64,000 nucleotides of DNA from the human T2T-CHM13v2.0 reference genome, Homo sapiens: NCBI RefSeq assembly GCF_009914755.1, contig NC_060932.1. The stretch is one strand, 5' to 3'. Position numbers and translations under genes: made by a program. The first letter of the stretch is position 1, and the number at the start of each line of letters is the position of its first letter. Shown in pieces: positions 8,426 through 47,873 of the stretch. The notes under the pieces are model-generated. The model searched no databases. It was not told the DNA's origin and saw nothing but the letters and a program-made list of their open reading frames with translations.

Positions 8426-11400
8426 ATACACATAATTAAAAATTTGTCATTTTCATTTTTTTAAAAAAATTTATTTTTATATCATCTATTAAAAATAAAA
8501 TGTATGATATAAAAGTATTAAATAAGAAATTTTAAAAAATTAGTTAAACCTGAAATTTATAATTCAATTTTTTGAAAATTTAATTACTTAGTATTTTTAT
8601 AAAAATAAAACAATTCCCAATTCTAGCAATCAGTGTCCATCTAGTTGCCAATTGGATTGATGTGTCACACATGTTACATCTAGACCAACTTACATGAACA
8701 TTTAAGAGGAATATGAATTGCTTAAAATTTCAAAATGTTCCTCAGCTGCCATATGCAACTGCTATGAATACTCATTGATTTGTGAGTATCTCTGGAACCA
8801 TAAATTTGAGCACATAGACAAGGAAATGTGTACTTGGCTCTCTCTTCTGAGAACTGGAAATAACAGTTTATTTTGTAAGAATCTATTGCACATATGCTGT
8901 TTGAAGAAAATGATTACTGTGGCCTCTCTCTTGCCTACGTGCTATTACTGCTCAAATCCTCCCCATACTCTGCAGCAGTCTCCATCTCCAGTATTAGCAG
9001 TGGCAGAACCCACAAAACCTTGCCTTGTTCAGACACAGTGGACTTTTGTTTCAAGGACATAGGACTAAAGACTTGGAGAGAGGTATTTCCTTGGGCCCTG
9101 AATCATTTTAGTCATGACAACAGATATTTAGGGTTTGGGGTTCTGCTGTGCCAGTCTGAGCATCAGCTCCAAAAAGACAGTTATGTTTATATGTTCCTCA
9201 AGAAATTTATTTTTGTTTGTTTATGATGTGTGAGGTCCTCTGAAGTGCAGGGTTTAGCCCCGGTCTCCTTCTTGTTTAGGTCTAAGGGTCTGTGTAATTA
9301 TTTCTTATGGGACCAAAGAATTTTTTAGAATGAGACAGATATTTGGTTGCGTCTTGAAGAAGATATAGCACCGTGAGACATGTTACTGACTGTGCAAAGG
9401 CACTGAGGTATGTAGTGATGTAATCTGTTAAGGGAACTGCAGACACATCTGTGTGGCTGGAGCACAGGTTGCTCTTGGAGTAGTGCGAGGTGAAGCAGGA
9501 GAGATAAGTTAGGACACATCCCGGAGGTCTCAAGAGCCATTTTAAGGAACTCGGAGTTTATCCTAAATCAAAGAGGAACCTAAAGGGTTTTATACAGGGA
9601 AATAGTTGATTATTTTGAACCCTGAATGGGGGAGTATAGTTAAGAGAAGGGCAACCATAGAGGCAGAGGCACCAATTAGGGTGGTGATTATCCCTGCAAG
9701 AAGCAAGGATGACTTTAATAATGATGAGTTAGTAGACTTGGAAATGATGAGGGAAGTTAAGAGGGATCCGGGATAAGTTGAGAGGCTGGGTGTCTGCGTG
9801 AGGGTGGCACATTTTAGTTGTTTAATAAATGTTTGGGTGAAGTTTGCTCGTTTCCAGTGCCTCCAGCATTTTAACTACACTATCACATACCCTTAACTGT
9901 GGTTGATTTGCATACATTGTTTCAATACTTTGAATTGCAAAGTGGGTACATTCTTACCACTAAGAAAAGATTCATTCCAACAGAGTGGTGCCACAAAGTT
10001 CTCAGTGAAGCTGGTCTGTTACTGTTACAGAGCTGTGTTCATTCCCATTATGAGCTCCTTGGGTCCAAGTTCATCTCATGGGTCCGTCAGGTCATAGATA
10101 ACTGTGATATAATGTACAATGCTCATCAACAAGTTTTCTGTACACAGAAAAAACCTGCCATTCAGTTACCTTTCATAAGATTCTTTGTCCACATTGCCCA
10201 GTGGGAAACATTTGGAATCCTTTTCAAATTTTCCAAATAGATTATAACTTCACAGAATGTTTCCTTTGTTCTTTAAAGTGCTGAATCATTTATTTTAAAA
10301 TCAGGTTTAACCTAACGCAACTTTAGTTTTGGTTTGCTCTATTTGATTTCAAGTAACCTTTCAAAACAGGTCGGGGGCAGATTTATAATAAATGTAGCTT
10401 GAACTTGGCTTGGAAATCTGATAATGGCAGGCAAAGGGACTATGTTGTTCTTATATCTCTTTTTAAAAGCCCTCTTTATTTGCGCCTTTTCATAGCTGGG
10501 TCGACTACACTGCTTGATGCAAACTCAATCCAAAATATAACCTGAGCTTAAACAAAGGGATATGAGAAGTCTGCCCTAAAAACTAGGAACTCCACACCTA
10601 CCCAACCCTCCTACTGCTATTGACCATGTGATCTGGTTCTAATAACTGCTTCTGTCCAATTCTGTGTATCTGAGTCCAGGAACTGTTAACCAAGGTTGTC
10701 TAAAATATGGACAATAACACACTTTTATCTATTTTTTTTTAAATACAGAAATTGAAGTCTGTTTCCTCAATCCCAGCTTTGGGACTGGGACTCTTGATTG
10801 TGTGTCTACATTCTGGATTATCAAGCTGGTCCTGGCTTTTTTTCCAGGGCACACCATTATCTTGTGTCTGAATTTTTAGCATGGACTTACTACTTTTTGT
10901 CTGTTGCATTATCTTTTACGTATTTTAGTTTGTACGACAAGATGGTTTTTCTTCAATGACATCTATTCTTCTTAAGTTAGGCCTGTTCTTTTCGCGTATT
11001 CCTCATCCCAGGAGAAACGGCCCACAGCAGCTTTCAAACCCTTCTATAGCATTTCAATTTGTCGAGCAGATTGATTGTATCCCGGAAGAGAGGCAAATTT
11101 GTAGCTCATATACCAGTAGAAAAACCTTGCTGGATAAATAGCAACAGGAAGTCGAAGTTAAATCATTATTCCTCTGCCTTCCTAGCATTTGGTTGTGTAC
11201 ATATTATAGTATGCATTTAATTCCAATTTGACTTACAGTTATTTAAGTCTCCCCCAATAGGATTGTAAGGTCCTTTGTGACAGGGTCTATTCTTATTCAT
11301 TGCTGTATGCCTTGCAGCATGAGGGTAGTGCTTTCTAGGTGGTAAATGCATAGTAAATGGTTGAAAAAATAAAGACATATAATAAAATTAGAATGTGTAA

Positions 11401-13272: not shown

Positions 13273-16205
13273 TCACACATTGTGTAATTACTGGAAATAT
13301 AGAAAGGAAGACAACACGCACCATCACTGATCTCATAGAGTTTACAGCCTAGCAGGATTAACCAATGCTAAATGAGTAATTACACAAATTATAACTGTAC
13401 TAAGTACTATTGAGGAGAAGCACAGGGTACTGTGAGAAAACATAATGATGGGCCTGACAACTCTGGTTAGGGGAGATGACCCTGAGGAGGTAAAATTTTT
13501 ATCAAAAGCTCAGGGGCTCAGTTAGGTGAAAGATTTGAGAGTCACTGTAAGTAATTCAGAGTGAAATAATGACTTGAAATAGGGACGAGAATGAAGGGGG
13601 AGATGGATGAGCTTCTGTTTCTGTTTGCTTTGTCCAGTAAAATTAAGGGGAAAAATATGTCAAGGAAAATCATCAGAAAGTAAAGCAAAATGTGAGCTAT
13701 CCTTTTGGCAGAACTATGGATTTCCCAAGTTTTTAATAAAATTGGTGCCATTTCCCAAGCACTTAATGCTTGGCTTGGGGCTGTGGTCTCTGGAATTGAG
13801 TCTTTGTTAACTTCTCCTTCAGTGCAACAGAAAATTATATTTCTGCTGAAATAAGGAATTTAAAGTTTATATACCCTTCTTGAACATTGCCAATGTACAA
13901 AAATACAAAAAAAAAATCGTTTCCCAATTTTAGAAAGAAAATAAATTCCTGAGAGATCTCTCAACTCTAAAATACTTCTCTAGGTACGACTTCTCTCTTT
14001 ATCTATCATTGAATCTTAGCTATCTAAGGAAGCAATAAATGTTTCCAGGAACTTCCATTTATATTCTTTTACATGTTATTTAAGCTGCAGAGCTTTCTGA
14101 GACTCTTCATTTCTGCAGAAGTAACAAATGCTGCTGTTTAATCCGTGTTCCACCTGAAAGCTTAGATTTCTTTTTGAGTTGATTTTCTGACTAACACAGT
14201 TAATTTTCTGATTAGTATAGGGATTTATTTTCCTGGAAATGGCTTAATGATTAGCTCTAGTATTTACAAAATAAAAATAACTTCCTGACGTGCTATTCAG
14301 TTCATATGGTGGGTGGAAGGAAATGGCTGTTTTTGATATTCAATTGACATACTAGGGTTCTACCATTAGAAATTTCAGGGAAAATTCAGATTTTAGAATT
14401 GGAAGTGTCTTTCTCAAATGAGCCCAGTTCTAAACTTTACCTAGATTCACCAAACTTTACTCCTAGCCCAGTCTTTTTCCTCTCTCATCTTTAAAGAAGT
14501 GGTAACCCTTTTTAAAGTTTCCACTTGGTTCACAATGGCCCCTAAGCTGCATCTGCTCCTGCAGCCTATAGCCTATCTTCCTAAATGTCAGTGAATTCAG
14601 TGGGATCTCCACCCCATTTCCAACTACAGTTGATAGGACCATAGCTGGGTCCCATCCAAGCCAGCTGGGGTCCTTTTCCTGGGAATATGGAACTGGGACT
14701 AGAAATACATCTGTTTCTTCATGTGGTAGGTATCATCATTCCTGTAAAAGAAAAACGTAGGAAGTAGCTTGTGACATACGAAGTTTAGTCCAAGAACACT
14801 GCTCTTGATAATAGAAAAAAAGAGGAGGATAATGATAAGAAAAATATTACGTTTGAAAAATTAGAAGGAAGGGGTCACATCGAGCTCAGTGGTGACATTG
14901 ATTAGGGCCATGTTTTATGGATTTCCACCATGCCAAGCAGCCCCTGAGCTACAAGAAGCTCCTGCTGCCTCATCATCTCTGTGCACAGTGGGGCTGGTGG
15001 GAACTAGCTTTGAGAGGGCATCATGAACCATGTTTTGAATAGTTTGAGATGTTCTTGTGACATCTAGATGGAAATATCAAATAGGCATTGGATGTGGGCA
15101 TTTGAAACAGTCTTGGATAAAAATGTAAATTTAAGATCATAAACCTAATAAAAGTTTACATAGCCTTTGAAGCCAAAGTTATGGATAAGCGAACCTTATT
15201 ATAGCAAGTTTAAAATTTTGCCACTTAACTCTTTTTTTCTTACATTGAACCTATCGTTTTTTGTTACATGATTTTTTATAATAAGACTTCTTCTGGAACA
15301 CACCCTTTGTATTAATAGTGAACAGATGGTACCAATTTATGCTCTTCTCAACAACGTATGACAGTTCTTATTTCTTTGCATCATTGATAGCACTGTGTAT
15401 TATTTAAAAATCTTTACTGATTTAAAGAATGTAAAGATTGATAGAACATTATTTTAATCTGTACTTCTTTGATTATTAAGTTGGGTCATTTAAAAATGTA
15501 TTTATTTATGATTTGTATTTCTTCTTTACTAAATTGCCTCTTTATGTCTTCTTGACATTTTCTCTTGGAAATTCAATTTTTATGTTAAAACTTGTGAAAG
15601 CTTTTTACATAGCGAGGACATTGTTCCTGTGGATGCCATTTATATTGAAACATTATTCCCGGTTGTCATTTTCCTTTTTATTAAATTTTTTTATTGTTGC
15701 TGCTTTTACCAACATATTTAATTTTTCACAGTTCAATCCATTATTCTGCCATTTCCTGGGTTTGCCTTTGGTGTCTTTGAATAAAATTCTCCTACCAGAT
15801 ATTATTTAAATATTTATGTATTTTCTAGCATATTAATGATTTCATTGAAAAATTTAACCTATCTTGGATATATTTTGATATATGAGTGAGATCAGGTTCT
15901 AACTATTTTTTTAAGTAGCTAAATGTTATTTTAGCACAGTGTGATTCTGTTGTGAATGTTTGCTTCTGCTGGCAATTTAGATCATCTAATAACATAGTAG
16001 AAGGTAACATACCTAAATAGCATAACATGCTTCTACCTGTAAGGGGTATTAAAATGTTTATTAATGACTTGGGAAAGATATACTCTAGTTTTTGAGAGAA
16101 AAATAAAGCCATTTAAAGTTTGTTCCTCTATAACATAAATGCTATTTCTGTCTTCTCATAGTTAGGGGATTAGCATCCAAGATGCCATTGTGAGAAAACT
16201 CTAGT

Positions 16206-17306
16206 TATTGGGGGAACCCACCCCCAGTATTTCAACATAGGTTCTTTCTATTTTCCATAAGTGTCAGCTGGCTGAGAAACAAAGAGAAAGAGTACAAAGA
16301 GAGGAATTTTACAGCTGGGCTGTCGGGGGTGACATCACATATCGGTAGGACCGTGATGCCCACCTGAGCCTCAAACCAGCAAGTTTTTTATTAAGGGTTA
16401 ATAAATAAAATAAAAAAGGGGAGGGGATGTAAGAACAGGGAGTAGGTACAAAGATCACATGCTTCAAACTGCAAAAGGCGGAACTACTAATAAAGGTCTA
16501 ACAAAGATCACATGCTTCTGAGGGAACAAGACAAAGGGCAAAAGCAGAACTATTGATAAGGGTCCAACAAAGATCACAAGGCAAAGGGCAAAAGCAGAAC
16601 TACTGATAAACATCTAAGTTCAGCAGTGCATGTATTGTCTTGATAAACATCTTAAACAACAGAAAACAGGGTTTGAGAGCAGAGAACCGGTCTGACCACA
16701 AATTTACCAAGGCGGAGTTTTTCCCCACCCTAGTAAGCCTGGTACTGCAGGAGACCAGGGCGTATCTCAGTCCTTATCTCAACTACACAAGACAGTCATT
16801 CCCAGAACGGCCATTTATAGACCTCTCCCCAGGAATGCATTCCTTTCCCAGGGTGTTAATATTAATATTCCTTGCTAGGAAAAGAATTTAGTGATACCTT
16901 CTCTACTTGCACATCCTTTTATAGGCTGTCTGCAAGAAGAAAAATATGGCTCTTTTTGCCTGATCCCACAGGCAGTCAGACCTTATGGTTGCCTTCCCTT
17001 GTTCCCTAAAAATTGCTGTTATTCTGTTCTTTTTCAAGGTACACTGATTTCATATTGTTCAAACACACATGTTTTACAATCAATTTGTACAGTTAACACA
17101 ATTATCACAGTGGTCCTGAGGTGATGTACATCCTCAGCTTATGAAGATAACAGGATTAAGAGATTAAAGTAAGACAGGTATAAGAAATTATGAAATTATT
17201 TGGGAACTGATAAATGTCCATATTAAAATGAAATCCTCACAATTTATGTTCCTCTGCCATGGCTCCAGCTGGTCCCTCCATTTGGGGTCCCTGACTTCCC
17301 GCAACA
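16206..17306 (-). mobile_element. MER11 solo LTR (HERV-K/HML-8 family)
   Basis: Reverse complement starts TGTTGCGGGAAGTCAGGGACCCC (MER11 5' end). Length 1.1 kb. 6-bp TSD TCTAGT at 16200-16205 and 17307-17312. Confidence 0.92.
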
Positions 17307-19974
17307 TCTAGTAAGTGCACTTGTGATCTGAGCATTCTAAAGTCTTCAAACACAACCCCTTTGTTCACCAGTTCACTGTTTTGGTACATGGTGAGAGTGT
17401 GTGCATATTTTTAAGACTCTAAGTTTACTCCTTATAACTTACTTCTTTATTGAAAGCAAGATTTTTTGTACAAGAATCCTATGGCTACTTCTCCACATTT
17501 ATTTCAAGCATGTTATACTTCTGTTAAAATACTTTTTATTCTATTCATTATTTTCCTTAGCTTTTAGTCTAGGAACACAAAATCAGCTACCATTTTTTAA
17601 TTGGTTAAATACCTACATCCATAGTTCCATTTTGCCAAAGTAGATATACTCATTTATACAGTAGCTATATCTGTCTGTCTGCCTATCTCTATGTGTATCT
17701 ACTGAAATTAAAAACTGGTAAATCTATTAAGAGTAATAAGAAAATCTGTGCAGTGTCTCAGAAGATCAGTGAGTAAATAAACATTTGGGGTTTACAGATA
17801 ATCAAGAAGATAATGCTTATAAAATAAGTATTTCCTTATGCTTTCATGGTCTTGGATGCAGAGAATATTGATGGCTTTTAAAATGATTTTGGCCCTTTAT
17901 TTATCCAATGATATCTTCCTCAAACAAACTTTCTCTTCTATGCCCTTTTATTCTCATTTGTAATCTTTTATTACCCACTAATAAACAATTCACTAAGGTT
18001 TGAGTTCTCTTTTTAAAAAAAATCTTTTTATATCTCTTCTGCAATGAAACCTTATATCAACCCAAAGTAATATTTTTAGAGGAGAAAGGAAAAAAAGATA
18101 ATTCATGAATGATACCAGAAATATACTGTCATACCATTTGTAGGTATGTGTTACAAAGGATGAGGAAGAAAAGCAAAAATAAATATTATACTAGGATGCA
18201 AGATCAAGAGAGACTTGGAGTCCATTTTTAACTTTTTAAATAGTTTAGAGCAGGGATCTTTTCCTGAGGTCCAGGAATGACTTTGTGATGGGGAAGGAAG
18301 CAAAAGGCTGAGTTTCTAAACATTCTAAGACTCAGTGCAAAATTTTGGCTATATTTGATTATGTAACATTTTTGGTAAGGGAGAGAAGTTTCATAGCTTT
18401 AATCACATATTGGTAGGAATCTGCCACCACAGAACAGAGAAGGACCACGGATAGGGAGTTCCTAGAGTTATAGTAAATAGATATCTGCTCTTTTGAGTCA
18501 TGTAAGGAAATTAAATTTAATGAAGATATTTCTTTTTCTTTCTTTCCTTTGCCCTAATTCCTGTTATGATGAATTTAATGTATTTTGAGTCATTTTGCTA
18601 AACCTTACATAAATGAACAATATAGAAAATATTTTGGTCTACCTGGACTCACAGTTCAGCAGAAGGGTGCCATAGTGATAACGGTACAGCAGGGTATTTC
18701 TGAAGGGCAAGTGAAAAGGCAGAAAACAGCATGCAGTAAGAGCACTCTTTATCCTAGAGCCCACGCTGGGCCTCACCAGCTGGCTTATCATTCTAGATGC
18801 CAATAGATGTGGCATAAAGAAGGTCAGCTGCCAAACATCATGGAAAAGCCAGAGAATCCTTGCAGGATGTTTAAATTCTTTATGTAAGTTGACAAAGGAT
18901 GAGGACATACAAGAGGAGGGTGAGTCAGTGACACATATGAGTTACACTCTCAGATGATCCAATGCCTAGTTTACATACCTCCTCTCAACAGCTGTTTTTA
19001 TTGGCTACTTCAGAGAAATTCATAATGAATCTCATGAGTTCTGCCAAATATATGAAATTCTGGCAGAGGCAGTAAGGGGAAACATGCTACCCATTTGGCA
19101 TTTGCCTTAGGGATAATGTTTGATGGTCATCATGTATTTTTTTGTCACATCTTTGCCCTGTCCATAATAAGACTTACAGACTTATATCTAAATGCTGGAA
19201 TCCATTTTAACCTTCTTAAAAAATATATGGACCATCAGGTCAAGTGTTTTTCAGATCCTTCCTGTGAAACTTATTTCTAAATTGTTTAATTTCTTTTCAG
19301 AAAATGTTTTCAAATGAACATCTTTTGCAAATGTATTTCTCAACTTAAGCTCATATCCCTCTTTCTTTGGCTCCCACCTTTTGAGAGCCTTTGATAACTT
19401 TATAATTAAAATCCTATCAATACAACTCATGTGAAGTAATAGGATCCTAGGCCAGGTATAAGTGTTGCAGGCTTTCTCAATATTTGGCAAATATAGAGTA
19501 TCATACACAGTTGGATTCCTTTGCAAATAAAGTATTTTATATTTAGAGATTACACGTGGGGGCAGAGCTAATGTGTTACTTGACTCCATTATATTTGTAT
19601 TTATTTTTTCAATTAATAAATTATAAATTTCCCAACTTTGTGTAGAAAAACAAATTAATTTTGATTAAAAATAAAATAAAAACAAATTACATTTTAATAA
19701 AGAGGATTCACCTAAATTCTAGGCCCCAAGTCAAATATTTCAAAAGAAGTCTCTTAGTATGGTTTTTAGGTGTAAAACAAACACAGCCTTTGCAGAAAGG
19801 CTTATTAGAGCAGTGAAGAATCTGCTTAATGTTTTTTAAGTAATTTTACTAAAACTTACAGAAATGAACAATTGGGCTTGGTCTTTACTACTTCAAATGA
19901 GATAACTAAAGTAAATCACAAGATTAAACACTGGACACAGGATTTGTAGAATTCTGGATGTAGATATGGCTTCG

Positions 19975-20470
19975 GCAAAATAGGAGGAATAAGTTCTAGT
20001 GTTTTACAGCATAATAGGGTGACTATAATGAACAATAATTTATTGTATATTTTTAAATAGCTAGAGGAAAGGATTTTGAATATTCTCAGCACAAAAAAAT
20101 GATAAATGTTTAAGGTAATGGATATGCTAATTACCCTGATTTGATCATTACACATTGTATACATGAATCAAAATATCACACTGCTAGCCTGGGCAACATA
20201 GAGAGACCATGTCTGTACAAAAAAAAATTTAAAAATTAGGCTGGCATGGTGACAGGCATCTATAGTCCCAGTTACTCAAGAGGCTGAGGTGGGAGGATCC
20301 CTTGAGCCAAGGGGTTTGAGGCTGCAGTGAGCTATGATCACACCATCGCACTCCACCCTGACTGGCAGAGTGAGACCTTGTCTCAAAAAACAAACAAACA
20401 AACAGAAAACACCACACTATACTCCATAAACATGTACAATTATTGTGTGTCAATTAAAGATAAAAATAGC
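19975..20470 (+). mobile_element. L1MA-type 3' end interrupted by a truncated AluJ-like element (20185-20409)
   Basis: aataggaggaataagttctagtgtt..ggatatgctaattaccctgatttgatcattacacattg; resumes after the Alu at tactccataaacatgtacaattatt. Confidence 0.88.
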
Positions 20471-21410: not shown

Positions 21411-21699
21411 CTAGAAGGATAAAATATTTTAAAAATAAAAAGTTTTTAAAGTTACATAAAGCGTTTTATTTACAGGATTACTAACGCACTGATATTTAGA
21501 AAACTGAGTTAGAAATTGCAGTAATATCACTAATAGGAAGAGAGAAAGCCCCAAATCCTTTACATTCATTTCTTTGAACCAGGCATTTTGCTTTAATTAT
21601 TGATTTAATTATTTAATTAAATCAATTAAATAAAGCAAATTTAATTATTTGCTTTATTTTATTGATTTAATTATTGATGACTGGGTTAAAGTATCAACT

Positions 21700-22413: not shown

Positions 22414-22596
<183 letters not shown>

Positions 22597-35953: not shown

Positions 35954-36793
35954 ATTGTGTTTTACATTAAAAAAATATTGAGGCTTACAGAGGTGAAGAC
36001 ACCTCCTCAGAGTTACAAAACTTGCAAGTGGCTGCTTATATCCCATAAGCCTAGGGTTTAAACCTAGATCTGTGTAATTCCAAAGCTAATACATTTGCTT
36101 AGCCTTCCACTGTCAACAATTGTCCACTGACCTCCAGTTGATTCTATTTTCTGGAGGATTGGATTAGGTGATGTAGCTTGGTTTGGCTCAAGATGACCAA
36201 GAGTCAGGCTTCATCCTTGGGCTTACTTCACTCCGGAAGCTCATGGAGTGACAGGAGCAGGCTACCCCCTGCCAGGTAATTTGCCTCCTAATATTGTATA
36301 CTTTGTAAAAAGCAACTTTAGCTTGAACTACTCTATTAATCAACAAATTTGAAAAACAGCAACCCCCTTTCATTACACGATTATGTGATGATTTGTCACA
36401 TGAATGCTTTAACATCCATATGGAATGGCAATTTATTTAAAGTTTTAGGCACAGAATGACACTGGACCCTAACTATTATCACCTTTTATTTCATTATGTA
36501 CCCAGGGTGTGTTATTGTACTGGCAGAAAATTATATAGAGAAAGGATATAAAGTTTAATGAGCCTTTATAAGTCCAAACACCCTTCCCATTTACCTTTAT
36601 CCTTCTTTTTCTGCTTACAAATTTTGCTTCTCTCAGCTGAATCTATGCCAAATTCAAGATGTTTAGTTTTGTATTCACTTCACTTTCACCAAAAGTTTCC
36701 TCCCAGTATACTTTTCCAGGATGATCTTTGGGTTACTTTTGCCTACCAAGAAGGAGTTTAATCTACACAGACTCTGCTCTTCTAAACTAAAAG

Positions 36794-37060
36794 TATATAT
36801 ATATATATATATATACTTTTAAATTTTATATATATAAAATTTAAATTTATATATATAATTATATATTATATACTGTATATTATATACTGTATATAATATA
36901 TAATTATATATTATACAGTATATAATATAATTATATTATATACTGTATATAATATATAATTATATATTATATACAGTATATAATATAATTATATATTATA
37001 CAGTATATAATATATAATATAATTTGAATTTATACATATATTATGTATATTAGATTATTA
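36794..37060. repeat. (TA)n-derived AT-rich minisatellite
   Basis: Almost pure A/T with recurring actgt/acagt cores. Confidence 0.9.
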
Positions 37061-45045: not shown

Positions 45046-45688
45046 CTTAAAACCATTTGAGGGGGCATACCTTAGTAACATCCTGAATAGACATGTGTGA
45101 ACCTGTCTTTTCTGGAAGCTAGATTTAGGTTAGCTTGAATGTCCAACCAATACCGGTATGCCTGCTTTCCATTCTGTCCTGTGCCATCTGGAGCAACTCA
45201 GCTCTCTGGACCTTAGCCCCAGTTTTCCAATCTAGACTGTGACCTTGCCTTTGACCTGTGGTTGGTCTTATTTCACAGCCACTGACTGCTGCCTATGTCA
45301 GGATGCATGCCCCTGCTCTGCCCAGCCCCTTCCTGCCAGCTCAGCCCTCAGCTCCATTTTTTTTTTTTTTTTTTGAGACATAGTCTCACTCTGTTGCCCA
45401 GGCTGGAGTGCAGTGGTGTGATCTCAGCTCACTGCGACCTCTGCCTCCCAGATTCAAGTGATTCTCGTGCCTCAGCCTGCAAGTAGCTGGGACTACAGAC
45501 ATGTGCCACCATGCTTGGCTAATTTTTGTATTTTTAATAGAGATGGGGTTTTGCCAAGTTGGACAGACTGGTCACAAACTCAGCCTAGCTTCTAATCCAG
45601 GACCTCTTACACCATCCTATTCCATGATCTGATGCTGACCACTAGTTGAGTTCAGGCTCAAGTGACTGCTTAGACCAGAGGCTGAGAG
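45046..45688 (+). repeat. Local duplication, copy 1 (interrupted by Alu 45357-45580)
   Basis: Colinear with 47472-47873, e.g. tgaacctgtcttttctggaagctagatttaggttagcttgaatgtccaacc is identical in both. Confidence 0.93.
45357..45580 (-). mobile_element. 5'-truncated Alu
   Basis: Poly-T, right arm and part of left arm. Confidence 0.93.
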
Positions 45689-47471: not shown

Positions 47472-47873
47472 CTTAAAACCAAGGGAGCATACCTTAGTTA
47501 CATCCTGGAATAGACATGTATGAACCTGTCTTTTCTGGAAGCTAGATTTAGGTTAGCTTGAATGTCCAACCTATACCTGTATGCCTGCTTTCCATTCTGT
47601 CTTGTGCCATCTGGAGCAACTCAGCTTTCTGGACCTTAGCCCCAGTCTTCCAATCTAGACTGTGACGTTGCCTTTGACCTGTGGTTGGTCTTATGTAACA
47701 GCCAATGACTGCTGCCTGTGTCAGGATGTATGTCCCTGCTCTGCCCATCCCCTTCCTGCCAGCTCAGCCCAGCTTCTACTCCAGTACCCTCTTATCTCAC
47801 CCTGTTTCATGGCCTGATACTGACCACTAGTTGAGTTCAGGGTCAAGTGACTGCTTGAACCAGAGGTTGAGAG
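47472..47873 (+). repeat. Local duplication, copy 2 (no Alu)
   Basis: Colinear with 45046-45688. Confidence 0.93.

What the first reader, a model, noticed from the sequence alone, without database searches (positions are those of the whole stretch)
18896..18962. Block-scrambled copy of CA1 coding exon 6 lying about 2 kb downstream of the gene
Seen: three adjacent pieces of exon 6 recur on the same strand but in reversed order. aagaggagggtgagtcag (18911-18928) matches 22480-22497 at 17/18. agttacactctca (18940-18952) matches 22465-22477 at 13/13. cagatgatccaa (18951-18962) matches 22454-22465 at 12/12. The last two overlap through a 2-nt CA microhomology. A weaker fourth block (aggatgagga, about 18896-18905, versus gggatgaagga near 22524-22534) continues the same reversed order. 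The pieces come from the active-site stretch [15 protein letters not shown], and the single mismatch is at the synonymous third position of His200 (CAC vs CAT). Inference: an old serial template-switch insertion (Pol theta or MMBIR-like, with a DNA or CA1-RNA template) rather than a pseudogene. It also copied a TGAGTCA AP-1/NF-E2 core into the 3' flank.
Basis: partly seen in the sequence, partly recalled or inferred. Interest (0 to 1): 0.8.

Follow-up and report, generated by a model that had tools for sequence, protein, structure and literature searches.

The report
Scrambled CA1 exon-6 patch downstream
A 52-base stretch 1.4 kb beyond the end of the human CA1 gene is built from three short pieces of CA1 exon 6 in reversed order; it is most likely a harmless scar of error-prone DNA repair rather than a functional element or a pseudogene.

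Summary
18911-18928 matches 22480-22497 at 17/18, 18940-18952 matches 22465-22477 at 13/13, and 18951-18962 matches 22454-22465 at 12/12. They lie on the same strand in reversed order and tile 41 of 44 source bases inside CA1 exon 6.

Each block alone is chance-level. A nearby pair of 12-mers turns up 0.4-1.1 times per simulated window. The triple did not occur in any of 352 Markov windows. It is also the only such cluster in complex sequence in the real window. My arithmetic puts it at about 7e-5 per window loosely, and about 0.002 genome-wide once compactness is counted.

The patch fits CA1 (42/43), not the paralogs (at most 30/43). The locus is unique in the genome, and the flank holds no colinear CA-like sequence.

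The "fourth block" is noise. The TGAGTCA core is real, but such cores occur at chance frequency.

The best reading is a real, functionless templated patch. The mechanism is inferred. Age and the empty site could not be tested, because no primate genomes were available. Coincidence keeps about 20%.

The parts
18911..18928 (+). Block C of the patch: copy of exon-6 bases 22480-22497 (codons LTHPPL on the minus, gene-sense strand), 17/18 identical
   Evidence: In the window, matches with up to 3 mismatches number 2 against 0.05 expected. Genome-wide, matches with up to 1 mismatch number 30 against 27 for the reversed control, so the word itself is not rare. What counts is that one of the 29 other hits lies 3.5 kb from the source.
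18929..18939 (+). 11-nt spacer with no exon-6 match; its first 3 bases extend block C to 19/21 if a second mismatch is allowed
   Evidence: and direct reading. One search found no match of 12 or more for the spacer itself.
18940..18952 (+). Block B: exact copy of exon-6 bases 22465-22477
   Evidence: The 13-mer occurs 83 times genome-wide (control 71).
18951..18962 (+). Block A: exact copy of exon-6 bases 22454-22465, overlapping block B by the 2-nt CA
   Evidence: The 12-mer occurs 654 times genome-wide (control 129). The B-A junction 23-mer is unique in the genome at up to 2 mismatches.
22454..22497 (-). Source: 44 bases inside CA1 coding exon 6 (22423-22578, minus-strand gene) encoding [15 protein letters not shown]
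   Evidence: plus the hub annotation for the exon limits.
18905..18910 (+). ACATAC, repeated at 18973-18978; a possible duplication or microhomology flanking the patch, not significant
   Evidence: a flanking 6-mer repeat of this kind occurs at 4% of 20,000 random places.
18973..18978 (+). Second copy of ACATAC, followed by CCTCCTCT, the reverse complement of the start of block C
   Evidence: My estimate is that this is chance-level.

Best explanation
The 52 bases 18911-18962 are a genuine derived copy of CA1 exon 6. I read them as a small patchwork insertion left by error-prone repair of a germline break or stalled fork 3.5 kb from the exon. A low-processivity polymerase copied three short tracts (18, 13 and 12 nt) from the same 44-nt stretch of exon 6, on the same strand. 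It let go and re-annealed further back after each tract. One re-annealing used a 2-nt CA microhomology and another followed an 11-nt filler. The product was then sealed into the 3' flank. It has no function. What is shown: the blocks, their order, their tiling of the source, their specificity for CA1, the uniqueness of the locus, and the excess over chance. What is inferred: that an insertion event happened, since no empty allele was seen; the mechanism (iterative template switching of the MMBIR or Pol-theta kind); the template (DNA in cis favoured over CA1 RNA); and the age. One difference in 43 bases suggests an event that is not ancient, but the interval is very wide.
For: Exact blocks and tiling. 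The three blocks match CA1 at 42/43; 19 other CA-family exon homologues in the genome match at no more than 30/43. In 352 order-3 Markov windows, a 17/18 pair with one nearby off-diagonal 12-mer occurred 11 times, in 9 windows. A 17/18 pair with two such 12-mers occurred 0 times. In the real window on both strands, the 35 records of such triples fall in 4 loci. Three are simple or self-palindromic repeats (about 3.9/31.3/47.0 kb, 21.6 kb, 36.8-37.0 kb) and the fourth is this one. It is the only one of 84 reversed-order 12-mer pairs whose blocks are both two-copy. Genome-wide frequencies of the three words are at control level: 30 vs 27, 83 vs 71, 654 vs 129. So their meeting within 52 bp, 3.5 kb from their common source, is not due to common words. 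By my arithmetic this is about 6e-10 expected places in the whole genome for this fixed source and partition, and about 0.002-0.07 after allowing for all sources and partitions within 64 kb. The locus and 1.9 kb around it are unique in the genome. Similarity stops sharply at the block edges, and tblastn and blastn found no colinear CA similarity in the flank. This fits copying of short tracts rather than decay of a long copy. Multi-template germline templated insertions exist in human genomes: passages of PMC8421209 report about 100 events of 25 bp or more per person, 26-33 of them complex, with up to five templates.
Against: No empty allele or outgroup was seen, so an insertion event is not demonstrated. 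Every component is individually common. About 7 same-strand 17/18 pairs and about 336 matches of 12 or more occur per simulated window, and pairs of nearby 12-mers occur 0.4-1.1 times per window. The same 180 bp holds five other 12-14-mers matching unrelated places. Without the compactness argument, my estimate is that 3-7 loose triples of this kind are expected somewhere in a 3.1-Gb genome, and the compactness statistic was chosen after seeing the data. Simple template switching does not itself predict that each tract should end where the previous one began. Described templated insertions are mostly copied from within about 100 bp, often as reverse complements (PMC8421209 passages). Here the template is 3.5 kb away and in direct orientation. 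Only one junction shows microhomology.
Confidence: 0.55

Rival explanations
1. Coincidence. Three unrelated chance matches (a 17/18, a 13-mer and a 12-mer) happen to fall together, and a reader who recognised the CA1 coding sequence noticed them.
For: Pairs of nearby 12-mers arise 0.4-1.1 times per simulated 64-kb window. 140 of 1500 random positions start a match of 12 or more somewhere in the window, and the same 180 bp has five other such matches to unrelated places. 8-mer clusters covering at least 30 of 44 bases of a core are common, at 912 of about 16,000 cores. The three words occur genome-wide at about control frequency. My loose estimate of about 7e-5 per window gives several expected cases per human genome, and the scan looks at very many windows.
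Against: 0 of 352 simulated windows had the triple. It is the only such cluster in complex sequence in the real window. The blocks tile the source with 0-2 nt gaps and sit within 52 nt in the copy. My arithmetic gives this a further factor of about 4e-4, or about 0.002 expected genome-wide. The source is the nearest gene's exon on the same strand.
Confidence: 0.22
2. Fragment capture and shuffling. A short piece of exon 6 (DNA, or cDNA from CA1 RNA) broke into three pieces that were ligated in a new order into a break by end joining. Alternatively, a once-colinear insertion was rearranged later.
For: Each source base is used once and the pieces abut in the source. Breakage and religation predicts this; free template switching does not. 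Patches from distant, often transcribed, regions inserted at breaks without target duplication or poly(A) are described as class 2 templated sequence insertions (PMC5110952, abstract and passages). All blocks lie within one exon, as an RNA origin would require.
Against: Pieces of 12-18 bp are very short substrates for ligation. Described patches are contiguous (PMC5110952 passages). From general knowledge, CA1 is not a germline-expressed gene. No exon-exon junction is present to prove an RNA origin. Getting C-B-A from a colinear copy by duplication and deletion needs three tandem copies and four deletions (my reasoning).
Confidence: 0.15
3. A decayed CA pseudo-exon or paralog relic from the tandem duplications that built the CA13-CA1-CA3-CA2 cluster.
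For: The site lies between CA13 and CA1 in a cluster made by gene duplication (hub annotation).
Against: The blocks match CA1 at 42/43 but CA13 at 30/43, CA2 at 29/43 and CA3 at 16/43. The order is reversed, not colinear. Similarity ends sharply. tblastn of the whole CA1 protein against 1-20342 gives nothing better than E 0.71 at an unrelated place, and only the 7-residue SLTHPPL (E 6.8) at this site.
Confidence: 0.02
4. A selected regulatory element: an AP-1/NF-E2 site, or a sequence kept similar to the exon for a function.
For: A TGAGTCA core lies in block C (18921-18927). Two more cores lie at 18494 and 18586, giving three in 430 bp (Poisson about 0.004 after correction for about 149 windows). 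From general knowledge, CA1 is an erythroid gene.
Against: The window holds 8 such cores, about what composition predicts (my estimate). RefSeq marks no functional element here; the only one in the window is at 9648-10179 (hub annotation). Occupancy and accessibility data cannot be consulted here. A binding site would not explain blocks A and B.
Confidence: 0.03

Closest known systems
MMBIR-type templated insertions (MMB-TIs), including complex multi-template germline events (PMC8421209; passages read)
   Same: Short tracts copied from a template near the site. There are several template switches in one event, microhomology at a junction, and fixation as a harmless germline variant.
   Different: As defined and searched there, the template lies within 100 bp and is copied as a reverse complement. 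Here the template is 3.5 kb away, is copied in direct orientation, and the three tracts come from one 44-nt stretch in reversed order.
Polymerase-theta-mediated end joining with templated insertions (PMC5068794, PMC4032859; search listing and abstract starts only)
   Same: Tracts a few to a few tens of nucleotides long, repeated rounds of annealing, extension and dissociation, and 1-3 nt microhomologies.
   Different: From general knowledge, the template is normally the immediate flank of the break. No flank-derived tract could be shown here.
Class 2 templated sequence insertions/polymorphisms (PMC5110952; abstract and passages)
   Same: A patch from a distant, transcribed region inserted at a break without poly(A) and without a clear target-site duplication. 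End-joining-like junctions with filler.
   Different: Those patches are contiguous copies, thought to be RNA-derived and usually from other chromosomes. This one is three scrambled 12-18-nt pieces from 3.5 kb away in cis.
Short-range template switching in replication (four-point model; PMC5453318, PMC7954356; listing and abstract starts)
   Same: A local, one-step mutational event that produces a cluster of apparent changes by briefly copying another template.
   Different: That model produces inverted (reverse-complement) copies within a very short range. No block here is inverted.
Breakpoint-junction templated insertions in FoSTeS/MMBIR rearrangements (PMC5120786; passages)
   Same: Junctions carry 6-15-bp and longer templated insertions 'from nearby sequences', with 2-5 bp microhomology, attributed to iterative template switches.
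   Different: Those accompany large copy-number changes. No associated rearrangement can be seen from one genome.

Membership tests
Templated insertion (generic) | Inserted bases identical or nearly identical to a template elsewhere, beyond chance | tested here: met
   42/43 over three blocks. The triple arose in 0 of 352 simulated windows and is the only complex-sequence triple in the real window.
Templated insertion (generic) | An allele or outgroup without the insertion (empty site) | not testable with these tools
   The held genome has no relatives here. The junction 23-mer was not found in genome contigs.
Templated insertion (generic) | Microhomology at the switch points | tested here: inconclusive
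   There are 2 nt (CA) at the B/A junction. The other junctions have an 11-nt filler or 0-1 nt.
MMB-TI as defined by MMBSearch (PMC8421209) | Template within 100 bp of the insertion, copied as reverse complement | tested here: not met
   The template is 3.5 kb away and on the same strand.
Class 1 (LINE-1-mediated) templated sequence insertion (PMC5110952) | Target-site duplication of at least 5 bp | tested here: inconclusive
   ACATAC at 18905 and 18973 flanks the patch, but such a repeat occurs at 4% of random places.
Class 1 (LINE-1-mediated) templated sequence insertion (PMC5110952) | Poly(A) tract at the insertion end | tested here: not met
   There is no A or T run at either end of 18911-18972.
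Pseudogene or paralogous CA exon relic | Colinear similarity to a CA exon or protein | tested here: not met
   The order is reversed. tblastn of CA1 against the flank gives only a 7-residue hit at E 6.8. The paralogs fit worse than CA1.
Dispersed repeat family | Other copies in the genome | tested here: not met
   The 161-bp and 1.9-kb queries hit only themselves. The junction 23-mer is unique at up to 2 mismatches. Very old repeats could escape this search.
AP-1/NF-E2 binding site | TGA(G/C)TCA core | tested here: met
   The core is at 18921-18927. It is 1 of 8 in the window, which is the chance number.
AP-1/NF-E2 binding site | Occupancy or accessibility in cells | not testable with these tools
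   No ChIP or ATAC data are held.

The most novel reading that the evidence does not exclude
The patch records a germline event of a kind not yet catalogued: a coding-exon segment (or its transcript) used in cis as a repair template from kilobases away. It yields a tile-permuted copy in which each source base is used once, in direct orientation and exactly reversed block order. That would be micro-scale shattering and religation, or backward-stepping template switching, at a 12-18-nt grain. If it recurs elsewhere in primate genomes it would define a distinct mutational signature.
Probability: 0.12. Interest if true: 0.5.

Novelty: new member of a known kind. Interest (0 to 1): 0.3.

Why it matters
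If real, this is a clean natural example of a multi-step templated insertion whose template is known, unique and under selection. The constrained exon preserves the original template sequence, which makes the event easy to date and dissect in primate alignments. It has no evident consequence for CA1 or for the carrier. It is also a caution: perfect 12-13-mers shared within a 64-kb window are ordinary, and only clustering plus tiling makes a case.

Tried and rejected
1. Extra 8-mers of the same 44-nt core in the flanks (18745-, 18813+, 18877-, 18896+, 18978-) looked at first like further pieces. One search showed that 8-mer clusters covering at least 30 of 44 core bases are common (912 of about 16,000 cores), so I dropped them.

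2. The fourth block is rejected.

3. I tried an empty-site test through paralogous repeat copies. The flank has no other copy in the genome, so the test was impossible.

4. I looked for an independent copy of the junction in other assemblies. There were 0 matches in genome contigs.

6. I considered the paralogs (CA13, CA2, CA3 and others) as source. Rejected.

7. I looked for a segmental duplication between flank and gene. The only hits belong to one repeat at about 20179-20333, inside a masked stretch.

8. The ACATAC direct repeat and the AGAGGAGG/CCTCCTCT inverted repeat around the patch might have been mechanistic clues. They are at chance level (my estimate).

9. I tried a physical loop-out model to explain why each tract ends where the previous one began. 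I could not make it sterically plausible, so the tiling stays unexplained under pure template switching.

Full report
**What is there**

- Block C: 18911-18928 matches 22480-22497 at 17 of 18.
- Block B: 18940-18952 equals 22465-22477 (13/13).
- Block A: 18951-18962 equals 22454-22465 (12/12).

All three are on the same strand. The source order is A-B-C and the copy order is C-B-A. B and A overlap in the copy by the dinucleotide CA. In the source, A ends and B starts on the same base (22465), and C starts two bases after B ends. The three blocks therefore tile 41 of the 44 bases 22454-22497, and in the copy they occupy 52 bases with one 11-nt spacer.

The source lies inside CA1 coding exon 6 (22423-22578, minus strand by the hub annotation). 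Translation gives ...[19 protein letters not shown].... The single mismatch is the third base of the His codon: CAT in the exon and CAC in the copy. That is residue 201 with the initiator Met and 200 without. The patch lies 1.4 kb beyond the annotated 3' end of the gene (20342) and 3.5 kb from exon 6.

**The fourth block fails**

The bases at 18896-18905 match the exon best as an 8-mer at 22486-22493, not at 22524-34. They are also part of a 14-mer (18892-18905) that matches an unrelated place at 18153.

**Is it more than chance?**

The components are not.
- In Markov models of the window (orders 1, 3, 5; 60 windows each), a reversed-order pair of exact matches of 12 or more within 100 bp arises 0.40, 0.38 and 1.08 times per window. 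It occurred in 19, 19 and 40 of 60 windows.
- 140 of 1500 random positions start a match of 12 or more somewhere in the window. The 180 bp around the patch hold five other 12-14-mers matching unrelated places.
- 8-mer clusters are uninformative. 912 of about 16,000 44-nt cores have a non-colinear 8-mer cluster covering at least 30 of their bases. I therefore discarded the extra 8-mers of the core that I had noticed in the flanks.

The set is.
- In 352 order-3 Markov windows there were on average 7.0 same-strand 17/18 pairs and 336 exact matches of 12 or more. A 17/18 pair with one off-diagonal 12-mer within 60 bp occurred 11 times, in 9 windows. A pair with two such 12-mers never occurred.
- From these rates I compute about 7e-5 triples per window.
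- In the real window on both strands, the 35 records of such triples collapse to four loci. Three are simple or self-palindromic repeats (about 3.9/31.3/47.0 kb, 21.6 kb, 36.8-37.0 kb). The fourth is this one.
- Among the 84 reversed-order pairs of 12-mers in the real window, this is the only one whose blocks are both two-copy. By my reading of the printed sequences, the other 83 are Alu or poly-T.

Whole-genome counts give a model-free calibration.
- The exon 18-mer with up to 1 mismatch occurs 30 times, against 27 for the reversed-pattern control.
- The 13-mer occurs 83 times, against 71.
- The 12-mer occurs 654 times, against 129.

The words are ordinary, but for this fixed source the expected number of places anywhere in the genome holding all three within about 120 bp is about 6e-10 (my arithmetic). 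Allowing for every possible source and block partition within 64 kb gives roughly 0.03-0.07 per genome. Counting compactness in the copy as well gives about 0.002. Without any compactness argument, 3-7 loose triples per genome are expected. The compactness statistic was chosen after seeing the data, so I keep about 20% for coincidence.

**What it is not**

- Not a dispersed repeat. The 161-bp and 1.9-kb queries hit only themselves in the 3.1-Gb genome. The B-A junction 23-mer is unique at up to 2 mismatches. Very old repeats could escape these searches.
- Not a paralog relic. Searching the genome with the exon-6 peptide gave 21 matches. In the 20 fetched loci, the homologous 44 nt match the copy's blocks at 42/43 for CA1. 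The others reach 30/43 (L004, which lies within the CA13 span), 29/43 (L003, CA2), 16/43 (L005, CA3) and no more than 29/43 for the rest.
- No colinear CA-like sequence in the flank. tblastn of the whole CA1 protein against 1-20342 gives a best E of 0.71 at an unrelated place, and only SLTHPPL (7/7, E 6.8) at the patch. blastn of 14001-20342 against the gene finds only hits that all start in one repeat at about 20179-20333.

Similarity ends abruptly at the block edges, which fits copying of short tracts rather than decay of a long copy.

**How it most likely arose (inferred)**

Reversing three blocks while keeping their orientation cannot be reached by one inversion. By duplication and deletion it needs three tandem copies and four deletions (my reasoning). 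The economical reading is a single complex repair event that copied short tracts of exon 6 and joined them with a 2-nt microhomology and an 11-nt filler.

Such multi-template insertions are known as harmless germline variants in people. Passages of PMC8421209 report about 100 events of 25 bp or more per individual, 26-33 of them complex, with up to five templates. Short templated insertions 'from nearby sequences' with 2-5-bp microhomology mark FoSTeS/MMBIR junctions (PMC5120786, passages).

This case differs in three ways: the template is 3.5 kb away, the orientation is direct, and the tiling is neat. Free template switching does not predict the tiling. Breakage of one captured fragment and religation does, and so would a cDNA patch of the class 2 TSI kind (PMC5110952). 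I therefore list fragment shuffling as a separate rival. DNA and RNA templates cannot be told apart, because no exon junction is included.

The flanking ACATAC repeat (18905, 18973) occurs at 4% of random places and proves nothing.

**Function**

None is indicated. The TGAGTCA core in block C is one of 8 TGA(G/C)TCA cores in the window, about the number composition predicts (and my estimate). RefSeq marks no element here.

**What could not be done**

No other primate genome, human haplotype or functional-genomics track is available here. The empty site, the age, the ancestral His codon and any occupancy remain untested. Those alignments are the decisive step.

**Verdict**

It is a minor mutational curiosity and a new member of a known kind.

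Noticed in passing
window 45046-45347 and 47472-47770 (also 45579-45688 vs 47763-47873): A direct repeat of about 300 bp at 93% identity, 2.4 kb apart, inside a CA1 intron, with a second 111-bp piece at 85%. The layout is that of an LTR pair around a short internal region. This is my guess; no repeat library was available.
   Followed up: partly
window 18494, 18586, 18921: Three TGAGTCA cores fall within 430 bp just downstream of CA1. The window total of 8 is the chance number. Poisson for three in one 430-bp span is about 2.5e-5, or about 0.004 after correcting for about 149 spans. Two of them predate or are independent of the patch. It could be a small AP-1-type cluster or chance.
   Followed up: partly
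window 36788-37011 and 21599-21669: Two self-complementary (palindromic, low-complexity) stretches showed up as dense inverted self-matches in the cluster scan. The first lies in a stretch NCBI masks as repeat. The second is in the intron between the last two CA1 exons.
   Followed up: no
window 18892-18905 and 18153-18166: An exact 14-mer is shared by the left edge of the patch region and a site 740 bp upstream. By my estimate about 28 such 14-mers are expected per window, so it is probably chance. It abuts the patch, however, and could be another templated tract.
   Followed up: partly
whole genome: The 12-mer of block A occurs 654 times genome-wide, against 129 for its reversed control. It may therefore sit in some repeat family elsewhere. 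This does not affect the locus, which is unique.
   Followed up: no
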